Below, piece by piece: positions 13,401-47,028 of a stretch of 50,463 nt of DNA. The stretch lies in the UHGV virus genome UHGV-1368742; one strand, 5' to 3'. The stretch is from a virus. The notes beneath the pieces were generated by a model. It did no database searches and had not been told where the DNA came from. It saw only the letters and a program-made list of their open reading frames with translations. Made by a program: the position numbers and the translations under genes. How positions within the stretch are numbered: the first letter of the stretch is position 1; each line of letters begins with the position of its first letter.

Positions 13401-13504
13401 AGGTCATTATAAGCGGATTTAAACCCTTTTTGAAACTTACTAGAATCAAGTTCCAAGTATGCCACAGCAGTTCCCATATTAACCGCCATTTTTTCTCCTT
13501 TCAA
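10454..13504 (-). CDS. tail tape measure protein (TP901-type)
   Basis: 1016 aa. Ala/Gly-rich N-terminal TP901-family region (ATTAFSATQAAEGLNVLAQSGL...), hydrophobic central segment. Three tandem repeats of about 40 aa (W..QLPSR.W.WL...GS...QSGT..ASNF). Confidence 0.9.
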   Translation of the reverse strand: MKGEKMAVNMGTAVAYLELDSSKFQKGFKSAYNDLKVFGDKSATAEQKFKGLSSAFATVGSTMSRSVTLPLAGVGAAALKAGTDFESAMSQVAATMGTTTDKIQDLSKFAQHMGATTAFSATQAAEGLNVLAQSGLTAEEQMTALPEVLNLAAAGNLSLADSSTYVVGTLKGFGKGMDDAKRVTDLVAKGATMANTDVRGLGTALSSSSATAKSYGQNMDSVTLSLLRLAEQNVTGEEAATALNRAMMDLYTPTSTAKKALDELGVSVYDAQGNARDFNDVVDELNGKLSGMSEEERNAYKNTIFTTYGLQAFNKMTVSSTEKVNDFKEGLKNANDSALKQAQTQLDNLKGDITLFKSALEGAGIVISNVLIPNIRNFIQWLTNLVTKFNELSEEQQNFIVKAGLVIAAIGPVLLILSKVASTIGTIITVVKTASGVIGSVTKTIQLLSMGQSELVASMGGIPSVITKIVTTFSSAIAPILGVVAVIGTLVAMFVTLWKTNEEFRNNITNTFNELKKTFSDFANEFVSKINELGFNFESITDVIKTAWETLCDIFAPVFEGAFSTLVDIIQLVLNNILSIMDIFIGIFTGDFEQVADGIKGLFENVIETFTNIGSTILSTIGDIGAKILEKFGLDEAAQKFQEFFDKASDIFGRLPEIILGAFDSVKAFFTETIPEVFNNAVEAIQGFVNNVISFFTETIPNAFNTFVNETIPNTINAIVTWFSELPYKIGYVIGEMLGHIYLFGQSCIEWATTELPVIIENIVTWFAQLPSRIWEWLLDTINKVIEWGSSMLQSGTEAASNFLTNVVQWFSQLPSRVWSWLSNTLSKIVSWGSQLVQSGTQTASNFVSRFISFMQQLPSKVWNIVTQIPSKILAIGGQMYSAGRNILSQLWNGLKSIGNSILGWVSGFAGSIKSFIGGIVSGFKSVVSSANDAKSAARSVNGKHANGLDYVPFNGYVAELHKGERVLTKQENEEYNNSRGKNNSGDTFNFYNTKPNAYEYARQMKKAKRELLLGF

Positions 13505-18642: not shown

Positions 18643-18954
18643 CTATTCTCCTTTATTATATAATGTTTGTAAGATTCTTTCCTCTTTCTTCAACTGGTTT
18701 TTCTTTTTCTCAATACCTTTTAAAATTCTCTCCTTGTTTGTCTCGTTTGTTTCTACACTTGCATTTGCTAGTGCTTTTCTTATTTGTTTTTTCAAAATCA
18801 ATGTTTTTTGGTTATCATAATAAGAATCATATTGTTTTCCACAATTCGGACACACTAGAAAAGTCCTTGTTATGTTTTGTTTTCCAACTTGTTTGTTTTC
18901 TTCCTTTATCATTGGATAAAAGGATATTTGACACTTATCACATGTCACTTTCAA
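18643..18954 (-). CDS. zinc-ribbon protein
   Basis: Cys pairs CDKC...CPNC. Confidence 0.4.
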   Translation of the reverse strand: MKVTCDKCQISFYPMIKEENKQVGKQNITRTFLVCPNCGKQYDSYYDNQKTLILKKQIRKALANASVETNETNKERILKGIEKKKNQLKKEERILQTLYNKGE

Positions 18955-19351
18955 TTATATCACCTCCTGTATATATTGTCAACTCTTTTATGAATATTTT
19001 TCCATTTTCATCATAAAAAGTTTTTCCCTTTGAAACTTCATTGAGTAACTTTCTTTTTTCATTAAGTTTCTTTATGAGTCTGTCCTTTTTCCTTACCTCT
19101 CTAGGACTCACAGTTTCCTTTTTAAGACGTTTTCTCATTGCTTTGATAAATAATGCCTTAATCTCTTTGAACGTCTGTATGGACTCATTATCGTCTATCT
19201 GAACCACTTCTACTTCTTTACATCTTACACACTCGAAATACAAAATAACATAATGTTTTTTATCTTCGTCATATATATCTTTTTTCAGTAATGACTTTGA
19301 ATCCAAACTGTTTACCTCTCCACATTTGTTACATACTCTTTTTACTTCCAT
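18938..19351 (-). CDS. zinc-ribbon protein (paralogous in architecture to 18643..18954)
   Basis: Cys pairs CNKC...CVRC at the N-terminus, basic C-terminus. Confidence 0.4.
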   Translation of the reverse strand: MEVKRVCNKCGEVNSLDSKSLLKKDIYDEDKKHYVILYFECVRCKEVEVVQIDDNESIQTFKEIKALFIKAMRKRLKKETVSPREVRKKDRLIKKLNEKRKLLNEVSKGKTFYDENGKIFIKELTIYTGGDIIESDM

Positions 19352-22080: not shown

Positions 22081-22995
22081 TTAGAACAACTGGAATCTGT
22101 CCATTGGTACTCCAAAAGCACCAGCGTATCCATCTTGTCCACCTGTTGTTTCGTCATTATACTGCCATGAATAATATCCTCGTTTAACTGGTGATATTCT
22201 GTACTGTGCTTTCTGCCAACTTCCTACTGGTGGATGATAGATAACTTGTACTGCATCAATAACTCTTCCAATACCAGCATAACCATTGTTCGAATCACTC
22301 CAATTACATCCCGAAACAAAAGGCAGCCATCTTCCACCAAGAACATGTACTCTGTATGAAACCGAACCAACATCACATTTAATTGCAATATCTGTTATCT
22401 TTCTGCCTTGTACTCCCGCAAAGTCCTGTAAGTTTCTTACAAATGGATAAATTGTTCCACCCTCAACCCTCACTGCATATGTAAAGTTAACTGGAACATT
22501 GTAATGCCCTCCACTTGCCTGCGGCTTCTGTACTTCTGGTTGCTTTATTCCGTCACCATAATCAATATCACAGAGTTTCAATAAATCTGTAAATCTGTTT
22601 TGTGATAAATTTGCAATTCTAACACCATATGCTGAACCATCTGCGGCAATATATGTATCATTTCCAAGATACACTCCAATATGTCCATTCATCCATACCG
22701 CCCAACCAATATGGTTGTTTGTTCTTTGTGATATTGGAATAACTTCTACCGCTGTACTCTTATATTGTCCACTACCTCTTATAATACCAGTATACCAGCT
22801 TATAAGTCCACTACAATCTACACAAACCTTTCCAGCTTTGTTATCATCACTATACCAAACACAGTTAGAACCATACATTCTTCTTAATTCACGTATTTGT
22901 TCCAAACTCATTACAGTTCCTTTTGCTCCATATACATACGGAGTTCCAATCTTACTTTTTGCAAATTCAATTAACCCTTGTGCTGTTTTACTCAT
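22081..22995 (-). CDS. endolysin: N-terminal NlpC/P60 peptidase plus C-terminal cell-wall-binding domain
   Basis: Catalytic Cys in VCVDCSGLISWY and His in NGHIGVYLG match the NlpC/P60 signature. About 150-aa C-terminal domain. Confidence 0.75.
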   Translation of the reverse strand: MSKTAQGLIEFAKSKIGTPYVYGAKGTVMSLEQIRELRRMYGSNCVWYSDDNKAGKVCVDCSGLISWYTGIIRGSGQYKSTAVEVIPISQRTNNHIGWAVWMNGHIGVYLGNDTYIAADGSAYGVRIANLSQNRFTDLLKLCDIDYGDGIKQPEVQKPQASGGHYNVPVNFTYAVRVEGGTIYPFVRNLQDFAGVQGRKITDIAIKCDVGSVSYRVHVLGGRWLPFVSGCNWSDSNNGYAGIGRVIDAVQVIYHPPVGSWQKAQYRISPVKRGYYSWQYNDETTGGQDGYAGAFGVPMDRFQLF

Positions 22996-23047
22996 ATACC
23001 TCTATAACCTCCTAGAATACCCCTAGAATCAATTCTAATATAATCCC

Positions 23048-23296
23048 TTAGACTTCCTTAGATTCAACCTCTGGAATTCCTGCAACACTCGTTAATAAGC
23101 TTAGGATGCCTGTTACGATTGCTGTACTTACTACTACTTTCCAATCAACTGTACCGATTGTTGTTGATACTCCAATAGTTGCAACTGCTGACTGTGCCAT
23201 AGATTTTACTGCTCTTACAACTGCCGCTTTCATCCATTTCTTCGTATTTACAGAAACTTTAAATACACAATTCTTAAACATGTTTTTTACCTCCAT
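23048..23296 (-). CDS. holin (SPP1/XhlB-type, two transmembrane helices)
   Basis: 82 aa. Two hydrophobic helices (AVVRAVKSMAQSAVATIGV; VVVSTAIVTGILSLLTSVAG), charged C-terminus. Directly upstream of the endolysin. Confidence 0.65.
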   Translation of the reverse strand: MEVKNMFKNCVFKVSVNTKKWMKAAVVRAVKSMAQSAVATIGVSTTIGTVDWKVVVSTAIVTGILSLLTSVAGIPEVESKEV

Positions 23297-23600
23297 TTTC
23301 TAATTTACATAATTCTAATGCATGTTTTGTTTCATCTATTTCTTTTTCATTTCTCTCTATTGCATCCCACTGTTGTTTTTGTCCTTTTCTTACATGTTCT
23401 TTATATTCTTCTATCTCTTTGTTTTGTTTTTCTAGTTTCTCATTTTGTTCTTTTATTTCTTTTGCCAACTGTTCAACTCTTAGTGTTAATTTTGTCATTG
23501 CTTTTGTGTTTTCACTTAGTGGTCTGTATATCGCTGTGAATACTCCGATTAGAGAACTTAACCCTATTACCACAATACCAATCATTTCCGCAGTTGTCAC
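23274..23600 (-). CDS. membrane-anchored coiled-coil protein (XhlA-like lysis accessory candidate)
   Basis: N-terminal transmembrane segment IGIVVIGLSSLIGVFTAIY, then a K/E-rich coiled coil. Overlaps the holin start. Confidence 0.4.
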   Translation of the reverse strand: MTTAEMIGIVVIGLSSLIGVFTAIYRPLSENTKAMTKLTLRVEQLAKEIKEQNEKLEKQNKEIEEYKEHVRKGQKQQWDAIERNEKEIDETKHALELCKLENGGKKHV

Positions 23601-23678
23601 ATTGTTATACCTCCTAATTAGTCAATAAATTTATTATTATTTTTACCATTGTGTTATATTCTTAATTAACTATATCCC

Positions 23679-25691
23679 CTAATTAATTCCCCATCTATCT
23701 CCATTTATTATAATTTTATTGTTTTGAGCTAATAAACTATTCATAGCCACATTACATTCAACAAAATCCGATTGTTCATTTTTGGCTACAACAAAATCAA
23801 AAACGTTTTTTTTCGTAGAACCCTCTAAAAATATGCCATAAACAGAATATGCGCCGTCTGTTTCACCATCAATGATAATACCACTTAATTTGCAAAATGA
23901 AGAATTCAATATTTTTATATGTGCTGTGTCATATTCATTTACCTTTCCTGCATTATTCCAATCACTTTGGAATGATTCAATTAAACATCTTGACGTATTA
24001 TTTATAACCAACGCATTTCTATAATTCTGCTGCGCTGTACATCCTATCAGCGAATTATTAATACTTTCAACTAGATAACCAGCATTTTCATTGTTAGCCT
24101 TATTGCACAATCCCATTCTGCAATTTCTGACCACGTTATTGGCTGATTGCAAACATACACCCGACCACTGTATTTGAATCCCTACACACTCAATTATAAA
24201 ATTATCTGTACCTTGAATATAAATGGCATGTCTACTACAATCTTTTATATAAAGATTTTTTAAAAAAGAGCCTCTGCATTTTCCACCAATTCTCACACCA
24301 TATGTCACATTTTTTATATCACAATCCTTTATAATTCCATGCGTGTCATATCGTTCCAATTTTTCTTCGGATGTTGCTTGCAAATATACGCCAACGCATT
24401 TGCCACCACCATTAATCGATATGCTTTCTACAACGCAATCATATGAACCATCTTTACTTGAAACTACAGCCATCAACACATCAGTATTATCACCTACATA
24501 TTTAATTATTGTATTGTGTCTTTGTTCTCCTATAATTTTATGTTTTGATTGTAATAAAATAGTATCTGATACAACATACTCGCCATTTGGAAAATATACA
24601 ACATAGTTTGATTTAACCGCATTTTTTATAGCGATTGTATCATCTGTAATACCATCACCGACAGCGCCATAATTTTTTACATTTATAGGATAATATGATA
24701 TTTCGCTATCCTTAAAATAAATAAAACAATATTTAAGAAATTTAACACCACAGCACACTCTAATATAACCATTTGACGGTACGGTAAACAACCCATTTTT
24801 TGTTGCACCTCCCTTAACAACATTCACTGTATCAAATGTTTTCCAATCTTTATCAGTGTAAAAAGACAAAACTGCAATAGCTTCATCACCACCAATAAGA
24901 TTATACGCTATTATACTCCCAGCATTTACAGGTATAAAATTAGTGCTTTTATAATCACTAGCGTCTTCTGCCCATCCACTTTTAGAGGATATTAATTTGT
25001 TATTAATCAGCTCTTTTTTTAAATCAAAAAACCTCTTGCTGTAATAACTTGAATCTTCCTTTAATTGATTAACATCATTTGTCAACTCTGTATAATCACT
25101 TGGAATTGTCTCTATTACATCTTGTGCTTTCTTTTCAATTTCTGCTTTCTGTTCATTTGCAACTTTTAACAACTCTGCTTCTAACTGATTATAATAATCC
25201 TTTGCTACTTGCTCCTGTTCCTGTGTTCCATTTGCTTCTAGTCCCTCTAACACTATACCATTAGCTAGTGTTGTATTCCATTCATTTGTTATTGTTCCAT
25301 CTGATTTTGTTTTAATAGCACAAACAATAAAAGAAATAATTCCTTTATATGCTGTTACTTTTCTGCTCAATTCCCAACTGAATGTTACATATTTTTCTCC
25401 ATCTGCTGCTAGGTCTGTAACAATATATTTGTCTTTTCCTGTGTCCAAACCACTCGCATTCTGAAAAACAATTCTTAAAGACAGCTTGCTTAGGTCTATT
25501 CCATTACCAACAAACCTATTACAACTGAAATATTTTCTTTCACCTTTTTCATCACTCATAACACCGAATATTCTTTCTGTGTCTGGAATAATCATTGTTC
25601 TTGTATCTGCGTCTATCACTATTATATCATTTGTTTCTAATTCATTTACTGCCACTTCTGCCGCATTTAGCAATTCATCTACACTAGGCAC
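23679..25691 (-). CDS. tail spike / depolymerase-like protein with right-handed beta-helix (pectate-lyase fold)
   Basis: Motif YPINVKNYGAVGDGITDDTIAIKNAV...YFPNGEYVVSDTILLQS matches the Pectate_lyase_3 / beta-helix signature. Asn/Gly/Cys-rich repeats follow. Confidence 0.6.
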   Translation of the reverse strand: MPSVDELLNAAEVAVNELETNDIIVIDADTRTMIIPDTERIFGVMSDEKGERKYFSCNRFVGNGIDLSKLSLRIVFQNASGLDTGKDKYIVTDLAADGEKYVTFSWELSRKVTAYKGIISFIVCAIKTKSDGTITNEWNTTLANGIVLEGLEANGTQEQEQVAKDYYNQLEAELLKVANEQKAEIEKKAQDVIETIPSDYTELTNDVNQLKEDSSYYSKRFFDLKKELINNKLISSKSGWAEDASDYKSTNFIPVNAGSIIAYNLIGGDEAIAVLSFYTDKDWKTFDTVNVVKGGATKNGLFTVPSNGYIRVCCGVKFLKYCFIYFKDSEISYYPINVKNYGAVGDGITDDTIAIKNAVKSNYVVYFPNGEYVVSDTILLQSKHKIIGEQRHNTIIKYVGDNTDVLMAVVSSKDGSYDCVVESISINGGGKCVGVYLQATSEEKLERYDTHGIIKDCDIKNVTYGVRIGGKCRGSFLKNLYIKDCSRHAIYIQGTDNFIIECVGIQIQWSGVCLQSANNVVRNCRMGLCNKANNENAGYLVESINNSLIGCTAQQNYRNALVINNTSRCLIESFQSDWNNAGKVNEYDTAHIKILNSSFCKLSGIIIDGETDGAYSVYGIFLEGSTKKNVFDFVVAKNEQSDFVECNVAMNSLLAQNNKIIINGDRWGIN

Positions 25692-26455: not shown

Positions 26456-27199
26456 CTACAAGTCTAGCATACCTATTAACTTCTTATAATTTAGAATACG
26501 AACTTTATATTTCCCTCTCACTGTCCAATTCTTCTGAATAGCCTGTGTTATATTTACTTTTCCATTGAAGAATTTCATCGCTTCTGTCTTTGAATAGAAA
26601 TAATACTTTTTATGAGTTTCAATATCAGTTATAACGATTGAATGGTACATGCATTTTTTATTTATCTTTAACACTCTTTCTAAATTTGTATCTTGTAACA
26701 AATAATATTCTTTGCACCTTGTATTCAACCCTCTAAATGTTCTATGCAATTCATCCTGTGCTTCTTTCATATTTGTAAAAGCTCCTACAAAATTCAATCT
26801 AAAATCGTACACATAACACTTTCCTTTTCCATTAGCACCCCACATTTTCTCTACAGTGTTTTCATTAGCCATGTTTTCTTTTTGTGTACACCATCTAAGA
26901 TTGTTTGGTTTGTTATTCAGTTTGTTCCCATCTATATTGTCAACAATGTTTCTTTCTTCTGTATGACCTTTTACAAATGCATAAGCCATTAATCTATGCA
27001 CAAAACATTTTTTCCATCTTCTTTCACCTTGTAGCTTCAATGCTACCTGTTTATATCCACTACTATTAAAACTCTGTACCAATTCCATTCCATCTTTTCC
27101 ATAGACATTTCCATATTTGTCTATTTCATATATATCTAATACTTGTTCATATTCTGTTGCTAATGTATTTACTTTCTTTCTCTCATACATCACTGGCAA
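26456..27199 (-). CDS. free-standing HNH homing endonuclease (HNH_3 family)
   Basis: VHRLMAYAFV...VDNIDGNKLNNKPNNLRWCTQKEN matches the HNH_3 motif. Annotated start is TTG; an ATG 9 nt downstream has a better RBS (AGGAGG). Confidence 0.7.
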   Translation of the reverse strand: MPVMYERKKVNTLATEYEQVLDIYEIDKYGNVYGKDGMELVQSFNSSGYKQVALKLQGERRWKKCFVHRLMAYAFVKGHTEERNIVDNIDGNKLNNKPNNLRWCTQKENMANENTVEKMWGANGKGKCYVYDFRLNFVGAFTNMKEAQDELHRTFRGLNTRCKEYYLLQDTNLERVLKINKKCMYHSIVITDIETHKKYYFYSKTEAMKFFNGKVNITQAIQKNWTVRGKYKVRILNYKKLIGMLDL

Positions 27200-27271
27200 C
27201 CTCCTTTATAATATTGTCGCAATAGCTCTTGGGAACATTATTCTTTCGTCAGTTCCTATGCGTTGCACGTG

Positions 27272-27598
27272 TCAAACAGCCATACGCTGTAAGACTTCCG
27301 TTCTGGTCTGCATTTCAGCCTTTCCAGTTTTTTCTATCGCTTTATACACCCCTAGTCTTGTGGTATTTTTAAAGGTGTGAGCATCTATGTTAAATTCATC
27401 ATATATTACATTGCCTTTTGCATCCCTTGCATACGTTAAATCTTTCAATTCCTTTATTGTGTTTCTACACTTAGGAGAACATATAACCTTCTTAAAACGT
27501 TTTATCTTCTTTGTGTTCTGTAGTCTACTTCCCGCATACTTTTTACAAGCATACATATTGAATCCCTCTTGTCTATAATACTGTATTGACTTTGGTTC
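27272..27598 (-). CDS. terL: terminase large subunit, 3' exon (nuclease C-terminus)
   Basis: The frame is open from the stop at 27602 and reads [29 protein letters not shown]...[26 protein letters not shown]. This matches the TerL consensus ADSAEPKSI...AKKG.GS...C.N.I.EL..Y.W..DK.GN. The exact 5' boundary is ambiguous (27589 or 27598). Confidence 0.6.
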
Positions 27599-28439
27599 TA
27601 TTTATATTCTATGCGGTTCGCTACTCCGCACACGTTCTCTAATGAACTGCTGTAATTCTCATTACAGATTAGACTATATCTTAGCATTTCTGCTCCACAT
27701 GTTTCGGAACGCTTGTTCCTACTCTACTTACTTCCATTACATTTTCCATATCTAACATAATGTGTTTTCGATAGTCGTTGAATAGCTTGTTCTTTCGAAA
27801 GTTTTTTATATGAAAACAAATAACCTTTATGTTGTCTTTCTATTCCTCTACAGACATTTGCAACATGACTTCTATTAAATCCATCATAACTTGCTTCTGT
27901 TGTTGAAACATAGCTTCTAATATAATTCCCATCTAAATCATATTTATAAACTGTCTTCGCTAAACTCCAATTGTTATTCTCTCTAGGAGTTACCCAATTT
28001 AAGTTGTCTGCATTGTTATTCTTTCTATCTTCATCTTTATGATTGACATATTTTCTTTTTGACGTTCTCCCTTTTACAAACGCCAACGCTACTAACCTAT
28101 TAACACGCAAATAGTTTGTTTTATTATGTTTCGTTGTCAATGCTACGTTTAAATAACCGCCTGTCTTTTCATACTGCTTTAGCTCGTGTCTATTACTCAT
28201 ACTCACGTTCCCATGCTTATCTCTTAACGAAAATACTCTGCCATCATACGAAACATAATATCCATCATTTATATGTTCTAATCCTTTTATTTTATTTATT
28301 TGTTTTACTTTCATATATTTATTCCTCCGTTTACTTTAAACTACTACTGGTTGACTAATCCATTGAATTGTCACTCTATGGTATCAATGGCTCTAAAGTG
28401 TTTCCAGTATTCAATGTGGTTTTATGCGACCAAACCTTT
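27599..28439 (-). mobile_element. group I intron in terL carrying an HNH homing endonuclease gene (boundaries +/-10 nt)
   Basis: It separates TerL ...IYADAA(KG) from EPKSI.... It contains the conserved group I P7/J8-7-like element gcuAAGAUAUAGUCuaauc (plus strand 27640s-27660s). The 5' exon can end in U (GCU or GGU). Contains ORF 27724..28314. Confidence 0.5.
27724..28314 (-). CDS. intron-encoded HNH homing endonuclease (HNH_3 plus NUMOD-like C-terminus)
   Basis: LVALAFVKG...VNHKDEDRKNNNADNLNWVTPREN matches HNH_3. The C-terminus YDGFNRSHVANVCRGIERQHKGYLFSY is shared with the 40475..41569 N-domain. RBS GGAGGA. Confidence 0.75.
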   Translation of the reverse strand: MKVKQINKIKGLEHINDGYYVSYDGRVFSLRDKHGNVSMSNRHELKQYEKTGGYLNVALTTKHNKTNYLRVNRLVALAFVKGRTSKRKYVNHKDEDRKNNNADNLNWVTPRENNNWSLAKTVYKYDLDGNYIRSYVSTTEASYDGFNRSHVANVCRGIERQHKGYLFSYKKLSKEQAIQRLSKTHYVRYGKCNGSK

Positions 28440-29492
28440 AGCCGCATCCGCATATATTGGTTTATTACATCTTTCAGCTCTTTGTTTTGTTTTCCTTACT
28501 CCATCCAATAAAATAAATTTATTATCTGTTATATGGTTTCTGTATACTTCATCATAAATATAAAGTATTTTATTTTTATCATCTACTGCACAACTAATCA
28601 ACGCATTATAACTTGTTTCAAAACCAAAGTCCAAACCAAAGAAATGATATTTACTTGGTATGTTTGTTATTGTATTTGTAAATTGTTTTGCGTTTGTTGC
28701 AATCGTAAATTGTGGCAATACTCTTGTTCCACTTGCTCCGAATCTTCCCCACCTTGCAACCGTCCATAAATGCGGGTCATTTATCTTTAATCCATCCAAA
28801 CGTTTTATGTATGACACTGGCAAGAAAGGATTATCGTCTGCAATACTATGATGGTAATATACTCCATTCTTTTTGTTTACTAATGTTCTTCTCTTGTATA
28901 TCTCCTGTTCTTCCTGTATTACGTGTTCTTTTCCTTTATCATCTGTATGCGTAAAAAATGTGTTATATACCCAATTCTCTTTCCCTACTGGGTTTGTTGT
29001 CATAATAAAGTGTAATGACATTTTAGGCTCTCTGATACGTCCTAAAAGCTCTGTATAAGCGTCATAACGTATTTCACTACACTCTTCCATCCAAACGATA
29101 GAAACACCATGTATGGACTTTATTTTCTCTACATTGTCCATTCCTCTGAATATAATTCTGCTACCATTTGAAAATCTTACTTCCATTGGTGACATAACCG
29201 CTACAGCCTTTCCATTCTTCGGCAAGTGCTGATTAGGTAGCGATTCATCACTTAACATGTTCATCTTTTCTAGTATCTCTTTGAATAATGCAAAACACGA
29301 TTCTTTTATTGTTCCATATACCTGTCTTACTACCAAACAGGTTCTTCTTTCTTCTAGTAATTTTAATATGATTTTAAGTGCAACATGGTAACTCTTACCA
29401 CTACCATATCCACCGAATAAAAGGTACTGTTCATAATTCCAATCTGTTAAAAAAGTGGAGAATCTTTTTGAAACATCAATGTTTACATCCAT
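28440..29492 (-). CDS. terL: terminase large subunit, 5' exon (ATPase plus start of nuclease domain)
   Basis: Walker A LLFGGYGSGKS; nuclease start FGLDFGFETSYNALI; ends ...KPIYADAA. The likely start is MDVNIDVSKRF at 29492 (RBS AAAGGAG), not the upstream M at 29558. Confidence 0.85.
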
Positions 29493-29611
29493 GTTCTTTT
29501 CTCCTTTTGTTTTAGTTTGTTTGTAATAACAGAAAAGGACAGATACATCACTTTGCATCTGCCTTTCTGTTTGAATTAATTATACCATATTATATTTTGT
29601 TCGTCAATGCT

Positions 29612-29972: not shown

Positions 29973-30045
29973 TGGATTATATAGGACTCGAACCTATAAC
30001 TTGCCGCTTATGAGGCGGTTGCTCTAACCATTGAACTAATAATCC
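29973..30045 (-). tRNA. tRNA-Met (or Ile2), anticodon CAU
   Basis: Minus strand reads GGATTATTAGTTCAATGGTTAGAGCAACCGCCTCATAAGCGGCAAG...GGTTCGAGTCCTATATAATCCA. Cloverleaf with a GTTCGAGTC T-arm; the anticodon loop CUCAUAA carries CAU. No encoded CCA. Confidence 0.75.
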
Positions 30046-30134
30046 TTATGTGTTGCTTTCATGCGCTTGAACATTACTCACAACACTTTAGCAAGAAAAG
30101 AAATTTGGTATGCACACCTTTTACAGTGTGCAAC

Positions 30135-30205
30135 TGCCTAGGTTGGATTCGAACCAACACATTAAGGAGTCAAAGTCCTTTGCCTTACCGTTTGGCTACT
30201 AAGCA
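30135..30205 (-). tRNA. tRNA-Gln, anticodon UUG
   Basis: Acceptor stem UGCUUAG/CUAGGCA (one G.U pair); D-stem GCC/GGC. Anticodon stem AAGGA/UCCUU with loop CUUUGAC. T-arm GUUGG-UUCGAAU-CCAAC. Confidence 0.7.
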
Positions 30206-30457
30206 ATACCTGTGTTTTAATGACTTTAACACCTGTCAAACTTTTCAGCAAGTTCCTTTGATATTTTAAAATCACTTCTTCTGTAACACTGTTCTGAATC
30301 TTGTCATCTTTATATTATCCATGTTGTGTTCACAATACTCTAAAAAGTTTGTTTGCGCTACTCTCATTGTTTTGTATACTCTAACTCTAACCATGTTTCT
30401 TGTTAATATCCTCTTTATCTGTTCTTTATTTTGTTCCCTTTGTTTCTTTCTGATTAT

Positions 30458-30885: not shown

Positions 30886-30947
30886 GTAAAATTTTAAATT
30901 TTACACAATATGTTATTATATAATATTTTATATTTATATAATAAAAT

Positions 30948-30969
30948 AAGCACCCTAAAATGAGTGCTT
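30948..30969 (-). terminator. rho-independent terminator after the glycosyltransferase gene
   Basis: aagcac-cctaaaatga-gtgctt hairpin followed by ATTTTATTAT on the minus strand. Overlaps the stop codon. Confidence 0.5.
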
Positions 30970-31837
30970 ATATCTTCTTATATTTATCTGATATTATTTT
31001 AGGTGTGCAATTATTCCATGAAACATTATGATGTAAACGCATTGTTTTCTTTGTTCCACCCATCATGCTTACTGTTACACAACTAGGACAACATATAACA
31101 CTGTAAAAGCTTTTAACATATGTTCCTAAATCTAAATATATATCGGTTAATCCTTTTTTATTCTTCTGCGTTTGCATCTGCTCAATAACAACATCTGTAT
31201 AGGTTAAGAACAGTTTTCCTTGTGTTCCATACAGACAATACGCATTCGTATCTTCGTTTATCGTTCCTAAAAACTTAAACGGTCTATTTGTTTTACAAAA
31301 GAAGCTGTTCATTGCCTTACGCAATATTTTCTCGTAATAACGCTTATTATCCTTACCTCCAATAAAATCCCCACCTTGTGCAAAAGCGATCGTGTATGCG
31401 CCTGTTACATCAAGATAATCAAGCATTATATCAAACAACGTATCTGCATTTTTAACTTTGATGTTCTTAAACTTATTTTCTAAAACAATCTTAAAAGCTA
31501 TTTGTGTATAGTCATCATCCAACACTAAAAAATATTTATATCCTAGTTCTTTAGCAATATCCCAGCACTTGTTACGTGCATACAAAACAATATTGTGTTT
31601 TTCAAAATTGTCCATTGTATCGCATTGCTCCATTGCTTCTTCTTTGTCAAAAACATAGACATTATCATTGCCATAAATTCTTTTATAATCGCTTTCCATT
31701 TCGTCCTCATTGTCTATAACAAGAATTACTTTGCCAGTATATCCAGCTTTCTTTAACGTCCTTAATGTTTTAACATTGCTTGCTCTTCCATGTGTTAAGA
31801 TAAAAACAACAAAACTTTTATGCTTCATCACTGTCAC
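30968..31837 (-). CDS. GT-A fold glycosyltransferase (DxD motif LVLDDDY)
   Basis: N-terminal beta-strand SFVVFILTHGRASN; acidic DDD motif within FLVLDDDYTQIA. Overall nucleotide-diphospho-sugar transferase-like pattern. Substrate unknown. Confidence 0.5.
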   Translation of the reverse strand: MTVMKHKSFVVFILTHGRASNVKTLRTLKKAGYTGKVILVIDNEDEMESDYKRIYGNDNVYVFDKEEAMEQCDTMDNFEKHNIVLYARNKCWDIAKELGYKYFLVLDDDYTQIAFKIVLENKFKNIKVKNADTLFDIMLDYLDVTGAYTIAFAQGGDFIGGKDNKRYYEKILRKAMNSFFCKTNRPFKFLGTINEDTNAYCLYGTQGKLFLTYTDVVIEQMQTQKNKKGLTDIYLDLGTYVKSFYSVICCPSCVTVSMMGGTKKTMRLHHNVSWNNCTPKIISDKYKKI

Positions 31838-32558
31838 CTCTTAACAATGCCACTTGCTCACTCATTTCAACATACCCTTTTGCAATAGCATCTTCAAAGT
31901 CAATAATAACAAGTGCGCTATCTTCCATAAGTTCTTGCATTTCTTTGTCAGCGTTTGCATAGTATTCAGCAATCTTGGAGTAATTAAAACATAAATGTCT
32001 ATAAGCACCATATCTTAGGAACTTCTTTTCTTCTTCTGAAACATTGCTTTGTTTTATTTTATGCAATAGCTCTTTTACTTTTCCAGTATCAACAAGTTCT
32101 GATATGCTTGGTGTTTCTCCTTTTATTTCATACTGTGGAATGTTTGTTTTCATTGTATACTTTTTTTCTTCCTCTTCCACATATTCACCAAAATCAAAAC
32201 CAAACAGTTTCATTTGTTCTTTGTCAAGTTCCTCAAGTTCCTGTGCTAATAAAACATCATCCCATTCACTTTCATTCAGTTTATTATCTACCAGCCTGTA
32301 CGCTTTTATTTGTTCTTCTGTTAAATCTTCTAAACAAACTGTTGGTACTTGTTTTAGTCCTGCTTTCTTTGCTCCTAGTATTCTACCATGCCCAGCTACT
32401 ACACTGTTATGTTTGTCAATGATTACTGGCTGTGTAAAACCAAACTCTTTAATACTATTAGCTATTTGTTCTACTTGTTCTTTACTATGTTTCTTTGCAT
32501 TCTTCTTATATGGTTTTAATTCTTTTATTGGTTTATAAACTATGTTTAGTTCTTCCAT
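31818..32558 (-). CDS. ParB N-terminal domain (ParB/Srx-like nuclease/NTPase) protein
   Basis: KPYKKNAKKHS...QPVIIDKHNSVVAGHGRILGAKKAG matches the ParBc box with GxxR. C-terminal helical acidic domain. Confidence 0.6.
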   Translation of the reverse strand: MEELNIVYKPIKELKPYKKNAKKHSKEQVEQIANSIKEFGFTQPVIIDKHNSVVAGHGRILGAKKAGLKQVPTVCLEDLTEEQIKAYRLVDNKLNESEWDDVLLAQELEELDKEQMKLFGFDFGEYVEEEEKKYTMKTNIPQYEIKGETPSISELVDTGKVKELLHKIKQSNVSEEEKKFLRYGAYRHLCFNYSKIAEYYANADKEMQELMEDSALVIIDFEDAIAKGYVEMSEQVALLRGDSDEA

Positions 32559-32695: not shown

Positions 32696-32935
32696 TTACA
32701 TATAGCTTAGTAACTTACCCATGTATTTTACGCTTTTAACTTTACAATTTTTTAATGATAATAGTAATACTGCTTTATATTTTGCTTCCTGTATGTTTTG
32801 TGCATAGCATAATGTTTTATTTGTTTGTTCTGTTTCTTTTCCGAAATCATCTAACTTTGTATATACTACTAAATACTTACTTTGTTTTTCATCTTCTATT
32901 TGCATATTTAGTTTTTCTAGTTCAGCAATACCCAT
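32696..32935 (-). CDS. hypothetical small protein
   Basis: 79-aa ORF. Confidence 0.3.
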   Translation of the reverse strand: MGIAELEKLNMQIEDEKQSKYLVVYTKLDDFGKETEQTNKTLCYAQNIQEAKYKAVLLLSLKNCKVKSVKYMGKLLSYM

Positions 32936-33023: not shown

Positions 33024-33548
33024 TTATTTACCACCATATACATCATTTCCCCATTCTTCCTCTTCGCTTTCTTCTTCAAGCCAATCTGTTCCATTTTCTG
33101 CATTCCATATTTCTTCGTCATCCTGTTTGTTTGGTTCATACACATCGCCCTGTGTTATTAGGTTGATTGTTACTTCATTCTGTACTTTACCTGTTTGTTT
33201 GAACATATCTAATTTATCCATCATTGTTACAATTTCTTTGATTGCTCCTACATCACCGGTTAAACCTTTTTTAAACAGTGCTACCATTAATAAATTTTGG
33301 TTTGTTAGTTCGCCACTTTTGAAGCCCATGTGCATTAATACTTGTTTTTGTTTTTGTGTTGTTATATCCATTGTGAGTAATGCTTTCATGGATTGCTGTA
33401 ATGCCATTTTTTCATCACGCTTTTTCTTTCTTGCTTCAACTCCAAGCTGTGTTATTCTCTTTCTATCTTCTGGTGTTCTTTCATTCATAGGGATTAGATT
33501 TTCTACTCCACTACGTAATATCTTTGGTGACTTCTTATTTGTTGACAT
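33024..33548 (-). CDS. hypothetical basic protein with acidic C-terminal tail (possible DNA-binding protein)
   Basis: Arg/Lys-rich N-terminal half, EEESEEEEW tail. No confident family. Confidence 0.4.
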   Translation of the reverse strand: MSTNKKSPKILRSGVENLIPMNERTPEDRKRITQLGVEARKKKRDEKMALQQSMKALLTMDITTQKQKQVLMHMGFKSGELTNQNLLMVALFKKGLTGDVGAIKEIVTMMDKLDMFKQTGKVQNEVTINLITQGDVYEPNKQDDEEIWNAENGTDWLEEESEEEEWGNDVYGGK

Positions 33549-33845: not shown

Positions 33846-33874
33846 ATTATAGCATGTTACTATCTATTTGTCAA
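33846..33874 (-). promoter_or_regulatory. perfect consensus promoter TTGACA-N17-TATAAT
   Basis: Minus strand reads TTGACAaatagatagtaacatgcTATAAT, in a 340-nt AT-rich intergenic region. Confidence 0.5.
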
Positions 33875-36575: not shown

Positions 36576-36890
36576 TTATTCTTTTTCTGCTTCACAGCAT
36601 TCACATGAACACGATTCTGCTTCGCATGACTCTGCATGTTCTACAAGTCCAACTGCTTCACACGCTTCTAAAACACAATCAAGTAATGCAATTAAACCAT
36701 CTTCATCAAGTATTCCCAAACTGCCTTTAAGAAATACCTTTGTTTCTTTTCCATCTTCTTCTGTTACAAGCTGTTCTGCAACACTGTATCCGACTTTGTT
36801 TGTTTCACTGTTGTATGCTTCTGAAATCACAACATTTCTTCTGTCCTTAAAACGCTTTGAGGAAAGTTCTCTAAATGTTAATCTTCCCAT
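36576..36890 (-). CDS. hypothetical protein with Cys/Glu-rich C-terminus
   Basis: Ends ESCEAESCSCECCEAEKE. Confidence 0.35.
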   Translation of the reverse strand: MGRLTFRELSSKRFKDRRNVVISEAYNSETNKVGYSVAEQLVTEEDGKETKVFLKGSLGILDEDGLIALLDCVLEACEAVGLVEHAESCEAESCSCECCEAEKE

Positions 36891-39136: not shown

Positions 39137-39451
39137 CTACTCACCTTTTATAATTCCCTTTGCTAGTTTACCAATGAACTGTTTGTCCATTCCATTCAAC
39201 CTACTAAACAAATCAAAACCTGTTGTTCCATCAAAATCATAGAAAACATATCCATACTGGGTATTTATTCTAATTGTTTTCTGCGAATATACTTTTTGTT
39301 CCCTTACTAACTGTTGTGCTACTTCATCAAACTTTTTATCACTCCATTTTGGACTGTCTTCTTCATAATACAAATAACTATGTATTAGAACAACCCTTTG
39401 TAGGAAATCTATTTTTAACTTATCTGTCCAATATGCTGGAAAAATATACAT
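39137..39451 (-). CDS. small protein resembling the N-terminal Ia domain of NAD-dependent DNA ligase
   Basis: FLQRVVLIHSYLYYEEDSPKWSDKKFDEVAQQL fits the LigA Ia pattern ...YY..D.P..SD..FD.L...L. Confidence 0.4.
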   Translation of the reverse strand: MYIFPAYWTDKLKIDFLQRVVLIHSYLYYEEDSPKWSDKKFDEVAQQLVREQKVYSQKTIRINTQYGYVFYDFDGTTGFDLFSRLNGMDKQFIGKLAKGIIKGE

Positions 39452-44813: not shown

Positions 44814-45263
44814 CTACCTCGCCATTAATGTACTATTATATTTTACAACTCTACTCATATATTTGTTTTTGCTAAATTCAAGTGCGCCTTGTTCTTTTAA
44901 AGTTTTAATTACCCCCTTTGTAACACTTCTTCCTTTGCATCTATCATAGAAGTCATCATATGATTTAAACACGCCCTTTCTGCGCTCGTTTTCAATGGTT
45001 TCTGCGGCTTTTTCTCCAATGCCCTTAATAATACTTAACCCTTGCTGTATAACGTCCTCTCCATCCATTTTACGCAATGAAGTTTTAGCTGAATAATTAA
45101 CATGAGGTAGCATAACCACAGCACCGTCTTTTACTGCAAACTGTGAATACTTAAATATATCTGCATCATTATCTGCATACTTCATTTTAACATACCAAAA
45201 CTGTGTTGGATAATGTACTTTATAATACATCTGATCTATTGATATTAAAGCGTATCCTGTTGA
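44814..45263 (-). CDS. dnaE: DnaE-type DNA polymerase III alpha, exon 3 (HhH region)
   Basis: STGYALISIDQMYYKVHYPTQFW corresponds to consensus (H)AAAYALIAYQTAYLKAHYP. HhH motif GLSIIKGIGEKAAETI. Listed ORF 44814..45359 includes 32 intron-derived codons at its 5' end. Confidence 0.7.
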   Translation of the reverse strand, partial: STGYALISIDQMYYKVHYPTQFWYVKMKYADNDADIFKYSQFAVKDGAVVMLPHVNYSAKTSLRKMDGEDVIQQGLSIIKGIGEKAAETIENERRKGVFKSYDDFYDRCKGRSVTKGVIKTLKEQGALEFSKNKYMSRVVKYNSTLMAR

Positions 45264-45608
45264 CAATACCTCACACACTTTCATGTGCCACACTACGCTA
45301 AATGTGTTAAGGTTTGGAGCACACCAAAGACATAAGCTTTCACCCTTAGTCCTCTCCATTATGCTCTCTGAATCTTCCCATGTTATATAGGCTTGACTGC
45401 TGATTACCTATTATTTACTACTTAGCACCTCACAATAAGGCTTTTATTTCAGCTTATAGTATCTGAATGATTTTTTCTGAATTTCTTCCGCATTCACACT
45501 TTATTTTTCAATATATGTTGTAGCTCATTCAGCTTTAAGGACTCCCAGCATTTTCGGAGATTTTCAGCACACACTTTACATGTATACTGCACTCAACCTT
45601 TTAAGTCT
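45264..45608 (-). mobile_element. ORF-less intron 2 in dnaE (group I candidate)
   Basis: 5' exon ends ...GFNKGH with CAU (U at the junction); intron ends ...GUAUUG; 3' exon starts UCA (STGYAL). The joined sequence FNKGH|STGYALIS matches the consensus FNKSHAAAYALI in length. No HEG inside. Confidence 0.5.
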
Positions 45609-46685
45609 ATGACCCTTATTAAAGCCATATATGAGCATGCTCGCCCATATGCTATTTGTTTGTTCTTTCGTCAATCCCTCTTGTCGGCATCCTTTAAAAA
45701 AGTCTTTCTTCATTTGTTCAATAATTGGAACGTATTCTGGTTTTGTTAGGTTTTCTGCTTTTTTCATAATCTTCAACATATCAAAACTCTGCTGTGGTGT
45801 TAAGTGTCCAACTTTCTGTGCTACTTCAACCGTTTGTTCTTGGTATAGCATTGTTCCATATGTTTCTTGCGTATATTTATAATATGGTGTATTCTTATCC
45901 ACATTATCTGAAAGTTTATTATGTGCATATGTTTCATGCATGTGCAACTGTAATGGTGCTGGTCTGTTTAGCGCATTCACCGCTATAATATCATTAACAC
46001 AATCACACTGAATCATATCAAGAATCTTTTTAGGTGCTGACTTCTCCATCTGGAATATTCCATCTGTTCTTCCCTCTCTGAATCCCTCTATAACTTCTTT
46101 GCTTTCTTCATCCTCTTCTGTGATTGTATGACCTGTTTTCTCTCTTAACTCACGCATTTCCGACATTGTTTTAAGTCCGAGCATATCAAACTTTACACAA
46201 TTAATATGCTCTAAATCATCTTTGTCAAAACAACTGCTTAGCGCTCCTGTCTTTCTATCTCGCATAATAATACAAGTATAGTCACTTATGTCTGTTCCAA
46301 CCACAGCAACACCAGCCGAATGTTTTCCTAAATATTTTATCTTTCCATACAGTTTTGAAAAATGTTTTATAATGTTATCATACTTCTCATTGAACTCTTC
46401 TGTTCTGTATCCATTCAGCAAATTACTCATGTTCAGTTCATCATCTACTATGAATCCCTTAATATATGACTTAATTTCTGCAATCACTTTTTTATTTTCA
46501 TCTGCTTCAAACCAATCAACATCTTTTGTTGTTTTTAGATTACAAACACTTGCTAAATCATTCACAAGATTGTCAACTCCATACATGCCATAAGAACAAA
46601 TCTGTATTGCTTTGTTTGGATATTTGTTTATAACATAATCAATTACTTCTTGTCTCCTGTCTCGTTCGAAATCTAAGTCAATATC
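45609..46685 (-). CDS. dnaE: DnaE-type DNA polymerase III alpha, exon 2 (palm/fingers)
   Basis: The frame is open from the TAG at 46688 and reads DIDLDFERDRRQEVIDYVINKYPNKAIQICSYGMYGV.... This matches the consensus DIDIDF..RR.EVI.YV..KYG. Contains YQEQTVEVA and ends GFNKGH. Confidence 0.75.
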
Positions 46686-47028
46686 CTACCTTAGTCGTTC
46701 GTTTCCAAACTATCAAGGCTAGACTATATCTTCCACTACTGTGGCATTCGCACTTCGGAATGGTGCTTATCTCCATCCCTACCCCTGTTACTCTCTTCAC
46801 AAGCTAGTCGTTACACCTTTATATACATCTGTATACACTTGGCACGGTATTCCCTCTATCTCACCATCACTGGTTTAGGGTTTCTTAGTCAGATTATTCG
46901 TCTATGGTCTATGCCCTATTATCCTGTTGTAACATTTCAATAAGGAGTCTTATTTTTCTGATACCGTTAGCATATTATAATAATACACACCATTAAACAA
47001 TGTTCACGAATGATGCCCAATTAAGTTT
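46686..47028 (-). mobile_element. ORF-less group I intron 1 in dnaE
   Basis: 5' exon ends ...KKSLP with CCU; intron ends ...AAGGUAG; 3' exon starts GAU AUU GAC (DIDLDF). Contains a P7-like pairing cgACUAGc ... AAGAUAUAGUCUAGcc, which shares the AAGAUAUAGUC element with the terL intron. Confidence 0.6.

What the first reader, a model, noticed from the sequence alone, without database searches (positions are those of the whole stretch)
30968..32558. ParB-like NTPase/nuclease domain protein adjacent to a GT-A glycosyltransferase
ParB N-domain proteins (GxxR box, VVAGHGRILGAKKAG) and GT-A glycosyltransferases (DxD motif, LVLDDDY) are both recurrent in predicted phage DNA base-modification loci. 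Here they overlap by 20 nt and are flanked by a terminator. No hydroxymethylase or deaminase was recognised elsewhere, so the substrate is open: DNA base, teichoic acid or protein.
Basis: inference. Interest (0 to 1): 0.55.

Follow-up and report, generated by a model that had tools for sequence, protein, structure and literature searches.

The report
Phage glycosyltransferase with dedicated ParB-like partner
This phage carries a sugar-transferring enzyme from a DNA-modifying family next to a dedicated ParB-like partner protein; the pair recurs in very different phages (and 16% of complete E. coli genomes), yet the phage lacks the enzymes that normally prepare DNA to receive a sugar, so the target is unknown.

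Summary
On the minus strand, a 246-aa ParB-N protein (31818-32558) overlaps a 286-aa GT-A glycosyltransferase (30968-31828) that matches Pfam TAGT strongly. The overlap is 11 nt from the likely ATG start, not 20. A terminator follows.

The window is probably a complete 50-kb phage genome. I found no TET/JBP dioxygenase, thymidylate-synthase-type hydroxymethylase or C5-methyltransferase.

The pair is a conserved module. 85 of 85 related GT loci with room have the partner, and 74 of 74 partner loci have the GT. It occurs in phages of Firmicutes, Actinobacteria, Proteobacteria, Bacteroidetes and haloarchaea, and in 889 of 5426 complete E. coli genomes (ynaK region).

The constant partner element is an acidic ~115-aa C-terminal domain that matched no Pfam family. 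The ParB-N domain accompanies it ahead of terminase genes. It is absent when the module sits between DNA polymerase and sliding-clamp genes.

Best reading (about 0.45): an adaptor-dependent DNA glycosyltransferase with an unknown acceptor. Main rival: protein glycosylation. This is a new variant of a known kind, with moderately high interest.

The parts
33846..33874 (-). Consensus sigma-70-type promoter (TTGACA-17-TATAAT with TG), the likely start of the transcription unit that ends after the GT
   Evidence: 12 of 12 matches. This is a pattern match only; function is inferred.
33024..33548 (-). First ORF of the unit (174 aa), function unknown
   Evidence: phrog_2412 (unknown function, E 2e-16); no significant Pfam family.
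32696..32935 (-). Second ORF of the unit (79 aa), function unknown
   Evidence: no family match.
31818..32558 (-). Partner protein (246 aa): ParB-N domain, acidic linker and conserved C-terminal GT-partner domain
   Evidence: phrog_620 over residues 1-235. The protein is acidic (pI 4.98, net charge -14).
32283..32531 (-). ParB N-terminal (CTPase-fold) domain, residues 10-92, including GHGR (P-motif Arg59) and the DN motif (D91-N92)
   Evidence: ParB_N at 40.4 bits; resembles Myxococcus ParB, Noc and Spo0J at E about 1e-12; conserved residues.
31821..32180 (-). C-terminal partner domain (residues 127-246), with motif YTxK..PQYE..G..P..EL...RH..FNY..IAEYYA...E.Q.LME.SALVIID...AI..GY. It matches no Pfam family and no solved structure
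   Evidence: 1152 representative clusters carry it, and it is always next to a TAGT GT; no PDB relative.
31835..31840 (-). Shine-Dalgarno sequence GAGGTG for the GT, lying inside the end of the partner gene (translational coupling)
   Evidence: read directly from the sequence.
30968..31828 (-). TAGT-family GT-A glycosyltransferase (286 aa from the ATG) with R15, D104-D106 (DDD), K171, E192-D193 and H266-H267 conserved
   Evidence: Pfam TAGT 129 bits. The AF2 model (pLDDT 86.6, pTM 0.87) is a GT-A fold. Best structural matches are phage TAGT-domain proteins (E 4e-32, TM 0.86).
30946..30971 (-). Intrinsic-terminator-like hairpin followed by TTTATTATAT, overlapping the GT stop codon

Best explanation
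The two genes form a two-component glycosyltransferase module. The GT is a catalytically intact TAGT-family GT-A enzyme that uses a nucleotide-sugar donor. The upstream protein is its dedicated adaptor or activator. Its C-terminal ~115-aa domain is the part that works with the GT. Its ParB-N (CTPase-fold) domain supplies NTP-gated engagement with DNA when the module is expressed with the packaging genes. The module most likely decorates phage DNA with sugar after replication and before or during packaging, which would shield the DNA from host nucleases. Shown here: the family assignments, conserved catalytic residues, translational coupling, near-obligate co-occurrence in both directions, one fusion protein, and the split between the two contexts. 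Inferred: physical interaction of the two proteins, DNA as the acceptor, and the protective role. The chemical acceptor is unresolved. No enzyme that makes 5hmC or 5hmU was found in this phage, so if DNA is the target the chemistry differs from all characterised TAGT pathways.
For: (1) The GT passes the TAGT threshold by a wide margin. It keeps the R...DDD...ED catalytic signature described for DNA-acting phage GT-A enzymes (bioRxiv 2023.12.21.572611). Its closest structural relatives are phage TAGT proteins.
(2) Characterised family members act on DNA-borne hydroxyls: the T2/T6 beta-glucosyl-HMC-alpha-GT is PF20691 (PMC13216743), phage GT-A enzymes glycosylate 5hmC, and they resemble trypanosome JGT structurally.
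(3) Co-occurrence is essentially obligate. 85 of 85 GT loci with room carry the partner, and 74 of 74 partner loci with room carry the GT. One locus encodes a single 522-aa ParB-CTD-GT fusion (L094). The 11-nt overlap recurs in distant phages.
(4) Both recurrent contexts are DNA transactions. The ParB-N form lies ahead of TerL in 59 unique cases and never in a replisome operon. The form without ParB-N lies within 3.5 kb of DNA polymerase A and beta-clamp genes in 19 cases.
(5) There is a precedent. A ParB-like protein with a nucleotide-binding domain and a C-terminal domain, but no DNA-binding domain, is required for a phage thymine dioxygenase to act on dsDNA (PMC13229309). ParB-N is also commonly fused to DNA methyltransferases in phages (PMC12704722; phrog_498 hit).
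(6) The host range spans Firmicutes, Actinobacteria, Proteobacteria, Bacteroidetes and haloarchaea. That points to a universal substrate such as DNA.
Against: No source of 5-hydroxymethylpyrimidine was found in the window, which is probably the whole genome (3, 8-10, 12, 28, 29). None is annotated in the complete genomes of phages c5 and phi jlb1. TET_JBP, Thymidylat_synt and C5 DNA_methylase are not among the 25 commonest Pfam families in 142 non-redundant neighbour proteins. ThyS seeds gave no hit in 2.3 Mb of flanking sequence. The partner is strongly acidic (pI 4.0-5.0) and has no recognisable DNA-binding domain. The P-motif arginine is lost in the Nocardia and Porphyromonas homologs. GREB1, a relative of TAGT, glycosylates a protein (PMC7968844). 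The GT is only 15% identical to the characterised T-even type enzyme. I found no report of modified DNA in any phage carrying the module.
Confidence: 0.45

Rival explanations
1. The GT glycosylates a protein. The acceptor could be the partner itself, on the conserved Tyr/Thr-rich motif YTxK..PxYxP at the start of its C-terminal domain (as glycogenin primes itself). It could instead be another phage or host protein that the partner presents.
For: GREB1, whose GT domain is related to TAGT, O-GlcNAcylates ER-alpha (PMC7968844). The partner is dedicated, acidic and lacks a DNA-binding domain. Its conserved linear motif contains invariant or near-invariant Tyr and Pro residues. Glycogenin appears among the weak structural matches. 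SPASM-type radical SAM enzymes, the commonest accessory gene, often modify peptides (general knowledge). The absence of a hydroxymethylpyrimidine source is no longer a problem under this reading.
Against: Most characterised TAGT and related GT-A enzymes act on DNA. The link to ParB-N, DNA polymerase, clamp and terminase genes is more easily explained by a DNA target. The acceptor motif is conjecture. PDB matches are generic GT-A hits at E about 1e-4.
Confidence: 0.25
2. This is a canonical TAGT pathway. The GT glycosylates 5hmC or 5hmU in DNA, and the hydroxymethyl base comes from an enzyme too divergent to recognise (a cryptic dioxygenase or radical enzyme) or from the host.
For: The family name and precedent fit. 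O'Toole et al. note that thousands of contigs retrieved with their phage 5mYOX profiles lack a Pfam TET/JBP annotation. A radical SAM gene sits beside the GT in 8 related loci and could be an oxygen-independent route to an acceptor in phages of anaerobes (speculation).
Against: The window has no unassigned ORF of the ~290-300 aa typical of phage 5mYOX in its early region, and no radical SAM gene. The small complete genomes c5 (31.8 kb) and phi jlb1 (38.3 kb) leave little room. Only about 9% of related loci have the radical SAM gene.
Confidence: 0.08
3. The GT modifies a cell-envelope polymer (teichoic acid, LPS or capsule), as the prophage enzyme TarP does, to change phage adsorption. The ParB-like gene would be an unrelated packaging or partition gene.
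For: Pyle et al. report TarP as the top solved-structure match for phage GT-A enzymes. Nucleotide-sugar epimerase or dehydratase genes occur near a few modules.
Against: The same module occurs in phages of Gram-positive bacteria, Gram-negative bacteria, actinobacteria and haloarchaea, which share no envelope polymer. It sits in late or replisome operons, not in lysogenic-conversion modules. The CTD-GT linkage is essentially obligate. TarP was not among the top PDB matches for this model.
Confidence: 0.05
4. The pair is a toxin-antitoxin-like or regulator-enzyme pair, in which the small acidic partner simply restrains a GT that targets a host molecule.
For: The upstream protein is acidic, the enzyme is mildly basic, and the genes overlap.
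Against: The position is conserved inside essential late and replisome operons of both virulent and temperate phages. A natural fusion into one polypeptide exists (L094). The ParB-N domain is unexplained by this idea.
Confidence: 0.05

Closest known systems
ParB-dependent phage thymine dioxygenases (5mYOX176/ParB176; O'Toole et al., PNAS 2026, PMC13229309)
   Same: A phage ParB-like protein with a nucleotide-binding N-domain and a C-terminal domain, but no DNA-binding domain, is encoded next to a DNA-modifying enzyme and is specific to it. Conserved NTP-binding residues appear dispensable there, which parallels the loss of the P-motif Arg in some homologs here.
   Different: The partner enzyme here is a glycosyltransferase, not a dioxygenase. 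In that study the ParB-dependent subclass is linked to kinases, amidotransferases and amino-acid:DNA transferases, while GTs go with the ParB-independent subclass. I could not test whether the C-terminal domains are homologous, because no sequences were available.
Phage TAGT/GT-A DNA glycosyltransferases acting on 5hmC (Burke 2021; Pyle et al. 2024), and the T2/T6 beta-glucosyl-HMC-alpha-glucosyltransferase
   Same: Same Pfam family (PF20691), GT-A fold and R...DDD...ED motif.
   Different: Those enzymes sit with a C5-methyltransferase plus TET, or with a ThyS-type hydroxymethylase. They have no dedicated partner domain. Here no precursor enzyme was found, and a partner is always present. The window GT is about 15% identical to the T-even type enzyme.
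Kinetoplastid base-J glucosyltransferase (JGT)
   Same: Reported by Pyle et al. as the closest cellular structural relative of phage GT-A enzymes. It glucosylates 5hmU in DNA.
   Different: JGT needs JBP1/2 hydroxylation first, and no equivalent was found here. I could not test similarity directly, because the AFDB library was unavailable.
GREB1 glycosyltransferase domain
   Same: It is related to TAGT. NCBI's pipeline names some E. coli copies of this GT 'GREB1-related protein'.
   Different: GREB1 is a large eukaryotic protein that O-GlcNAcylates ER-alpha. It has no ParB-like partner.
Phage ParB-N/DNA-methyltransferase fusions, and the KorB-KorA clamp
   Same: A ParB-N CTPase-fold module is joined to a DNA-acting effector (phrog_498 hit over residues 3-127; PMC12704722).
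   Different: Here the effector is usually a separate polypeptide and is recruited through a distinct C-terminal domain. A fusion was seen in only one locus (L094).

Membership tests
TAGT, TET-associated glycosyltransferase (Pfam PF20691) | Sequence match above the curated gathering score | tested here: met
   129.3 bits against a cutoff of 27.5, covering profile positions 2-203 of 205. phrog_842 at 224 bits.
TAGT, TET-associated glycosyltransferase (Pfam PF20691) | GT-A fold with the R...DDD...ED(Y/F) active-site signature | tested here: met
   The AF2 model has pLDDT 86.6 and a GT-A topology. R15, D104-D106 and D193 are invariant across 11 diverse homologs. Best structural matches are TAGT-domain phage proteins.
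TAGT, TET-associated glycosyltransferase (Pfam PF20691) | Genomic association with a 5-hydroxymethylpyrimidine source (TET/JBP 5mYOX with or without a C5-MTase, or a ThyS-type hydroxymethylase) | tested here: not met
   No such Pfam or PHROG hit in about 50 ORFs of the window, including all ORFs of 150 aa or more except the 1016-aa ORF at 10454-13504, which was not scanned. None is annotated in c5 or phi jlb1. These families are not among the 25 commonest in 142 neighbour proteins. No ThyS hits in 2.3 Mb. Sensitivity to very divergent dioxygenases is limited.
TAGT, TET-associated glycosyltransferase (Pfam PF20691) | Transfers a sugar to a hydroxyl carried on DNA | not testable with these tools
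   Requires biochemistry or nucleoside LC-MS.
ParB/Srx N-terminal domain superfamily (Pfam PF02195) | Sequence match above the gathering score, with P-motif GxxR and the DN/EN motif | tested here: met
   40.4 bits against a cutoff of 26.3. GHGR (R59) and D91-N92 are present. The profile matches Myxococcus ParB, Noc and Spo0J at E about 1e-12. The catalytic Glu of GERR is His here, read from the sequence.
Canonical partition ParB (TIGR00180; ParABS systems) | Full-length match, HTH DNA-binding domain and a ParA partner | tested here: not met
   TIGR00180 scores 45.6, below its cutoff of 58.45, and covers the N-domain only. No HTH domain was detected. No ParA-type ATPase was seen among the scanned window ORFs.
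5mYOX-activating phage ParB (O'Toole et al. 2026) | Nucleotide-binding domain plus C-terminal domain without a DNA-binding domain | tested here: inconclusive
   The architecture is the same. Homology of the C-terminal domains could not be tested, because no ParB176 sequence was available.
5mYOX-activating phage ParB (O'Toole et al. 2026) | Encoded next to a cognate 5mYOX dioxygenase | tested here: not met
   The adjacent gene is a TAGT GT in 74 of 74 loci with room. No TET_JBP hit in the window.
ParB-N/DNA methyltransferase fusions (phrog_498) | Methyltransferase domain fused C-terminally to ParB-N | tested here: not met
   The phrog_498 match covers only residues 3-127 of the window protein and positions 32-161 of 633 in the profile. 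No methyltransferase Pfam hit.

The most novel reading that the evidence does not exclude
The module installs a sugar directly on DNA that carries no hydroxymethylated pyrimidine. The site could be a canonical base, a DNA end or the backbone. It would use a dedicated adaptor domain, plus a ParB CTPase clamp when the module is expressed with the packaging genes. That would be a previously unrecognised class of phage DNA modification, present across bacterial and archaeal viruses and in prophages of about one in six complete E. coli genomes.
Probability: 0.15. Interest if true: 0.9.

Novelty: new variant of a known kind. Interest (0 to 1): 0.6.

Why it matters
Pyle et al. found that about 65% of phage GT-A and GT-B contigs have no neighbouring hydroxymethylpyrimidine pathway, and left them unexplained. 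This finding defines one large, coherent group within that set. It is a two-gene module with its own partner domain (1152 representative clusters). It has two context-specific architectures and recurrent accessory enzymes: a second GT, a radical SAM enzyme, a methyltransferase-like protein and a P-loop fusion. Because it occurs in cultured Lactobacillus phages and in Rac-like prophages of 889 of 5426 complete E. coli genomes, its substrate can be tested directly. If the target is DNA, it would show sugar modification without a 5hmC or 5hmU precursor, and would extend the recently shown role of ParB-like proteins as activators of DNA-modifying enzymes. If the target is protein, it would be a widespread phage protein-glycosylation system.

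Tried and rejected
- **Close phage relatives by DNA:** megablast of 28-36 kb found only a terminase match to Clostridium phage CS266P3, so there is no annotated close relative.
- **Solved structures:** sequence profiles of the GT and of the partner's C-terminal domain found no PDB relative. Foldseek against PDB gave only generic GT-A hits at E about 1e-4.
- **AFDB fold search (for JGT and GREB1):** the library was not available.
- **Partner structure:** the AF2 model was poor (pLDDT 59.8; the C-terminal domain helical at 52-78 then below 50), so I ran no fold search on it.
- **Literature:** Iyer et al. 2013 and the supplementary sequences of O'Toole et al. are not held. Searches for ynaK/ydaY and for ParB plus glycosyltransferase found no functional study of this pair.
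- **P-loop domain fused to the GT (P0087):** no Pfam or PDB match.
- **Radical SAM accessory enzyme:** only weak generic PDB matches to HydG, TYW1 and PylB.
- **ThyS seeds:** T4 gp42, Vibrio phage pv27 TS and pv27 DHFR gave no hit in any locus or in the window. T4 gp42 and pv27 TS do not detect each other, so single-seed sensitivity is limited.
- **Weak DHFR Pfam hit at 36576-36890 (E 9e-4, below cutoff):** not confirmed with the pv27 DHFR seed.
- **Rfam scan of the window:** only the two tRNAs, and no group I intron at gathering score.
- **Rejected idea:** the ParB-like gene as a partition or pac-site protein that merely sits next to the GT. The C-terminal domain is linked to the GT in both directions, and one locus fuses them.
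Full report
**Observation.** All genes of the window lie on the minus strand. A 246-aa ORF (31818-32558) carries VVAGHGRILGAKKAG. A GT ORF ending at 30968 carries LVLDDDY. The first matches Pfam ParB_N (40.4 bits, cutoff 26.3) and phrog_620 (205 bits, residues 1-235). The second matches Pfam PF20691 TAGT (129.3 bits, cutoff 27.5, E 2.5e-37) and phrog_842 (224 bits). These are not chance matches.

That GTG is part of the Shine-Dalgarno sequence GAGGTG (31840-31835). The ATG at 31828 lies 6 nt downstream and is the start called in the public assembly. The GT is therefore 286 aa and overlaps the partner gene by 11 nt. A terminator-like hairpin with a T-run lies at 30971..30946.

**Setting in the window.** The exact GT protein is encoded on ENA contig k119_115333 of 50,583 nt. 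That is 120 nt longer than the window, as expected for a circular assembly with its terminal overlap trimmed (inference). Relatives carrying both proteins sit on contigs of about 50-54 kb. The window is therefore probably a complete phage genome (33% GC).

A perfect sigma-70-type promoter at 33874..33846 precedes four ORFs in a row: a 174-aa ORF (phrog_2412, unknown function), a 79-aa ORF, the partner and the GT. The terminator follows them. Downstream come a small ORF, tRNA-Gln, tRNA-Met and the large terminase.

**No precursor pathway.** Pfam and PHROG scans covered about 50 ORFs, including every ORF of 150 aa or more except the 1016-aa ORF at 10454-13504. They found RNase H, RecA, a Cas4-like exonuclease, a split DNA polymerase III alpha, a primase, HNH endonucleases, and structural and lysis genes. 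They found no TET/JBP dioxygenase, no thymidylate-synthase-type hydroxymethylase, no C5-methyltransferase and no radical SAM enzyme. The early region has no unassigned ORF as large as the ~290-300 aa of active phage 5mYOX enzymes (size).

**The pair is a conserved module.** tblastn found GT homologs at 39-49% identity in several groups:
- Lactobacillus phages c5, phiLdb, phi jlb1, LL-Ku and PMBT4
- E. coli vB_EcoS phages and a Salmonella phage
- Nocardia phage NTR1
- haloarchaeal virus HHTV-2
- 191-kb Vibrio phages

A Porphyromonas phage homolog was more distant, at 28% identity.

In c5 the pair forms the first two genes after the cos site. In phi jlb1, the E. coli phage and the Porphyromonas phage the order is ParB-like, GT, TerS, TerL. 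In NTR1 the GT directly precedes TerL. The complete genomes of c5 (31.8 kb) and phi jlb1 (38.3 kb) have no annotated hydroxymethylase, dioxygenase or methyltransferase.

The E. coli version is full-length in 889 of 5426 complete genomes and partial in a further 691. It is annotated as 'ynaK: ParB/Srx family N-terminal domain-containing protein' plus 'hypothetical' or 'GREB1-related protein'. K-12 strains hold a truncated remnant (ynaK/ydaY).

The co-occurrence holds in both directions:
- Of 89 IMG/VR loci fetched through the GT, all 85 with room upstream carry the partner: 78 directly upstream, 5 with one gene between, 1 downstream and 1 fused.
- Of 77 loci fetched through the partner's C-terminal domain, all 74 with room have an adjacent TAGT GT.

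**Anatomy of the partner.** Aligning partners from eight distant phages shows that the region after the ParB-N domain is at least as conserved as the ParB-N domain itself. Its motif is YTxK..PQYEPxG..P..EL ... RH..FNY..IAEYYA ... E.Q.LME.SALVIID ... AI.NGY. This domain has no significant Pfam match and no relative among solved structures.

In many loci, including the Vibrio phages, the partner is a stand-alone 120-150-aa protein made of this domain only. A phmmer search of 1.84 billion representatives found 1152 clusters with the domain, always C-terminal. Among the best 150, 84 have ParB-N plus CTD and 35 are CTD only. Locus L094 encodes one 522-aa ParB-CTD-GT polypeptide.

The two forms track context across 131 unique partners:

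| Partner form | Ahead of TerL | Replisome context (PolA or beta-clamp within 3.5 kb; Pfam) | Unassigned |
|---|---|---|---|
| ParB-N + CTD | 59 | 0 | 31 |
| CTD only | 5 | 19 | 11 |
| Unclear | 6 | 0 | 0 |

The partner is strongly acidic (pI 4.0-5.0), while the GT is mostly neutral to basic (pI 6.8-9.4, apart from the acidic HHTV-2 and Vibrio copies). The ParB-N domain resembles CTP-binding ParB, Noc and Spo0J (E about 1e-12). It keeps the P-motif Arg and the DN motif in the window. The Arg is lost in the Nocardia and Porphyromonas homologs.

**Accessory genes.** Several genes recur inside or beside the module:
- a second paralogous TAGT GT (six loci)
- a SPASM-type radical SAM enzyme always touching the GT (eight loci)
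- a class I methyltransferase-like protein
- a P-loop domain fused to the GT (P0087/L022 and L025)

Among 142 non-redundant neighbour proteins, Radical_SAM (9) and the beta clamp (8) were the commonest Pfam families. PAPS_reduct (3) and nucleotide-sugar epimerase or dehydratase families (2) also appear. TET_JBP, Thymidylat_synt and C5 DNA_methylase were not among the 25 families listed; the lowest listed count was 2, so each has at most 2 members. ThyS and DHFR seeds found nothing in 2.3 Mb of flanks.

**The enzyme.** The AF2 model (pLDDT 86.6, pTM 0.87) is a GT-A fold. Its best matches are phage TAGT-domain proteins (E 4e-32, TM 0.86). A T-even type beta-glucosyl-HMC-alpha-GT matches at E 1e-8 with 15% identity. 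PDB matches are generic GT-A enzymes. R15, the DDD triplet, K171, D193 and H266-H267 are invariant across distant homologs. The enzyme is therefore very probably active.

**Mechanism.** The best-supported reading is a two-component glycosyltransferase. The C-terminal domain of the partner binds or activates the GT. The ParB-N domain, where present, provides NTP-gated engagement with DNA. The closest precedent is the ParB-like activator that a subclass of phage thymine dioxygenases needs in order to act on dsDNA. That activator also has a nucleotide-binding domain and a C-terminal domain but no DNA-binding domain (PMC13229309). ParB-N/methyltransferase fusions are a second parallel.

DNA as the target rests on four lines of indirect evidence:
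- family membership
- the replisome and packaging contexts
- the ParB-N association
- a host range that calls for a universal substrate

No 5hmC or 5hmU source was found. If DNA is the target, the acceptor chemistry would be new. I put this model at about 0.45.

**Rivals.**
- **Protein glycosylation (0.25).** This fits GREB1, the acidic partner without a DNA-binding domain, and its conserved Tyr/Thr motif.
- **A canonical pathway with a cryptic hydroxylase (0.08).** This is limited by the lack of candidate ORFs.
- **Envelope-polymer modification (0.05).** This is disfavoured by the host range and the operon position.
- **A toxin-antitoxin-like pair (0.05).** This is disfavoured by the natural fusion and by the position inside essential operons.

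**Comparison and novelty.** The gene pair is visible in public annotation, for example as ParB-like partition protein plus beta-glucosyl-HMC-alpha-glucosyltransferase, or as ynaK. Pyle et al. mention GTs lying next to ParB-like and terminase genes. They set aside the roughly 65% of GT contigs that lack a 5mYOX or ThyS neighbour as not obviously linked to DNA modification.

In the library I could search, I found no description of several things:
- the dedicated C-terminal partner domain
- its essentially obligate two-way link with this TAGT subfamily
- the split of the two architectures by context
- the recurrent radical SAM accessory gene
- the absence of a precursor pathway in complete genomes

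I could not read Iyer et al. 2013, which may already note a ParB-TAGT association. I class the finding as a new variant of a known kind (ParB-partnered DNA-modification enzymes; TAGT glycosyltransferases), with interest 0.6.

**Limits.** All functional statements are inferences from sequence and context. The partner model was of low confidence, and no complex prediction was possible. Sensitivity to very divergent dioxygenases is limited. The neighbour analysis covers 5-10 kb on each side of the module.

Noticed in passing
window 26456-29558 (minus strand): The large terminase gene looks interrupted. ORF 28422-29558 holds the ATPase and the start of the nuclease domain. ORF 27272-27556 holds the end of Terminase_3C. 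An HNH/NUMOD endonuclease ORF (27724-28314) lies between them, and a second HNH ORF (26456-27199) lies after them. This suggests a mobile intron or homing-endonuclease insertion, but Rfam found no group I intron at gathering score.
   Followed up: partly
window 44814-48222 (minus strand): DNA polymerase III alpha is split over three ORFs: PHP plus N-terminal part (46993-48222), finger domain (45576-46586) and HHH domain (44814-45359). Gaps of about 400 and 215 nt separate them. These could be introns, inteins, frameshifts or a genuinely split gene.
   Followed up: no
window 29973-30045 and 30133-30206 (minus strand): tRNA-Met(CAT) and tRNA-Gln(TTG) lie between the GT operon and the terminase gene.
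   Followed up: no
window 22081-25691 (minus strand): A pectate-lyase-like beta-helix protein (670 aa) and an NlpC/P60-like protein lie between the terminase and portal genes. A holin is annotated here in the source contig. This is an unusual place for depolymerase and lysis genes.
   Followed up: no
loci L061, L068, L037, L063, L066, L073, L078, L091: A SPASM-type radical SAM enzyme (~320 aa, CxxxCxxC) always lies directly beside the TAGT GT, either between partner and GT or just downstream. It may tailor the sugar, or may create an acceptor without oxygen in phages of anaerobes.
   Followed up: partly
L094 9269-10837; P0087 (L022 6663-8054); L025 9455-10846: Natural fusions occur. One is a single 522-aa ParB-CTD-GT polypeptide. 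Another joins a ~180-aa P-loop (GGSRAGKT) domain of unknown family to the N-terminus of the GT, and is still preceded by a ParB-CTD gene.
   Followed up: partly
L044/L045/L095 (CTD-GT-CTD-GT); L035, L042, L062, L071: Phages on 64-82-kb contigs carry two CTD-GT modules in tandem between DNA polymerase A and a beta-clamp gene. This suggests stepwise glycan building coupled to replication.
   Followed up: partly
E. coli genomes (for example NZ_CP033378.1 2597963-2599679); K-12 ynaK/ydaY: The K-12 Rac prophage genes ynaK and ydaY appear to be truncated remnants of this partner-GT module. Intact copies lie next to trkG in Rac-like prophages.
   Followed up: partly
window 39137-39451 and 18938-19351 (minus strand): There is a stand-alone 104-aa protein matching only the N-terminal Ia domain of NAD+-dependent DNA ligase (E 6e-17). 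There is also a 137-aa ORF with a sub-threshold match to the mRNA capping enzyme/ligase nucleotidyltransferase domain.
   Followed up: no
(homolog lists): Across the same group of ~50-kb gut phage contigs, the partner protein is more conserved than the GT. The top 120 partner hits are 72-99% identical, against 54-92% for most full-length GT hits. This could reflect faster diversification of GT specificity.
   Followed up: no
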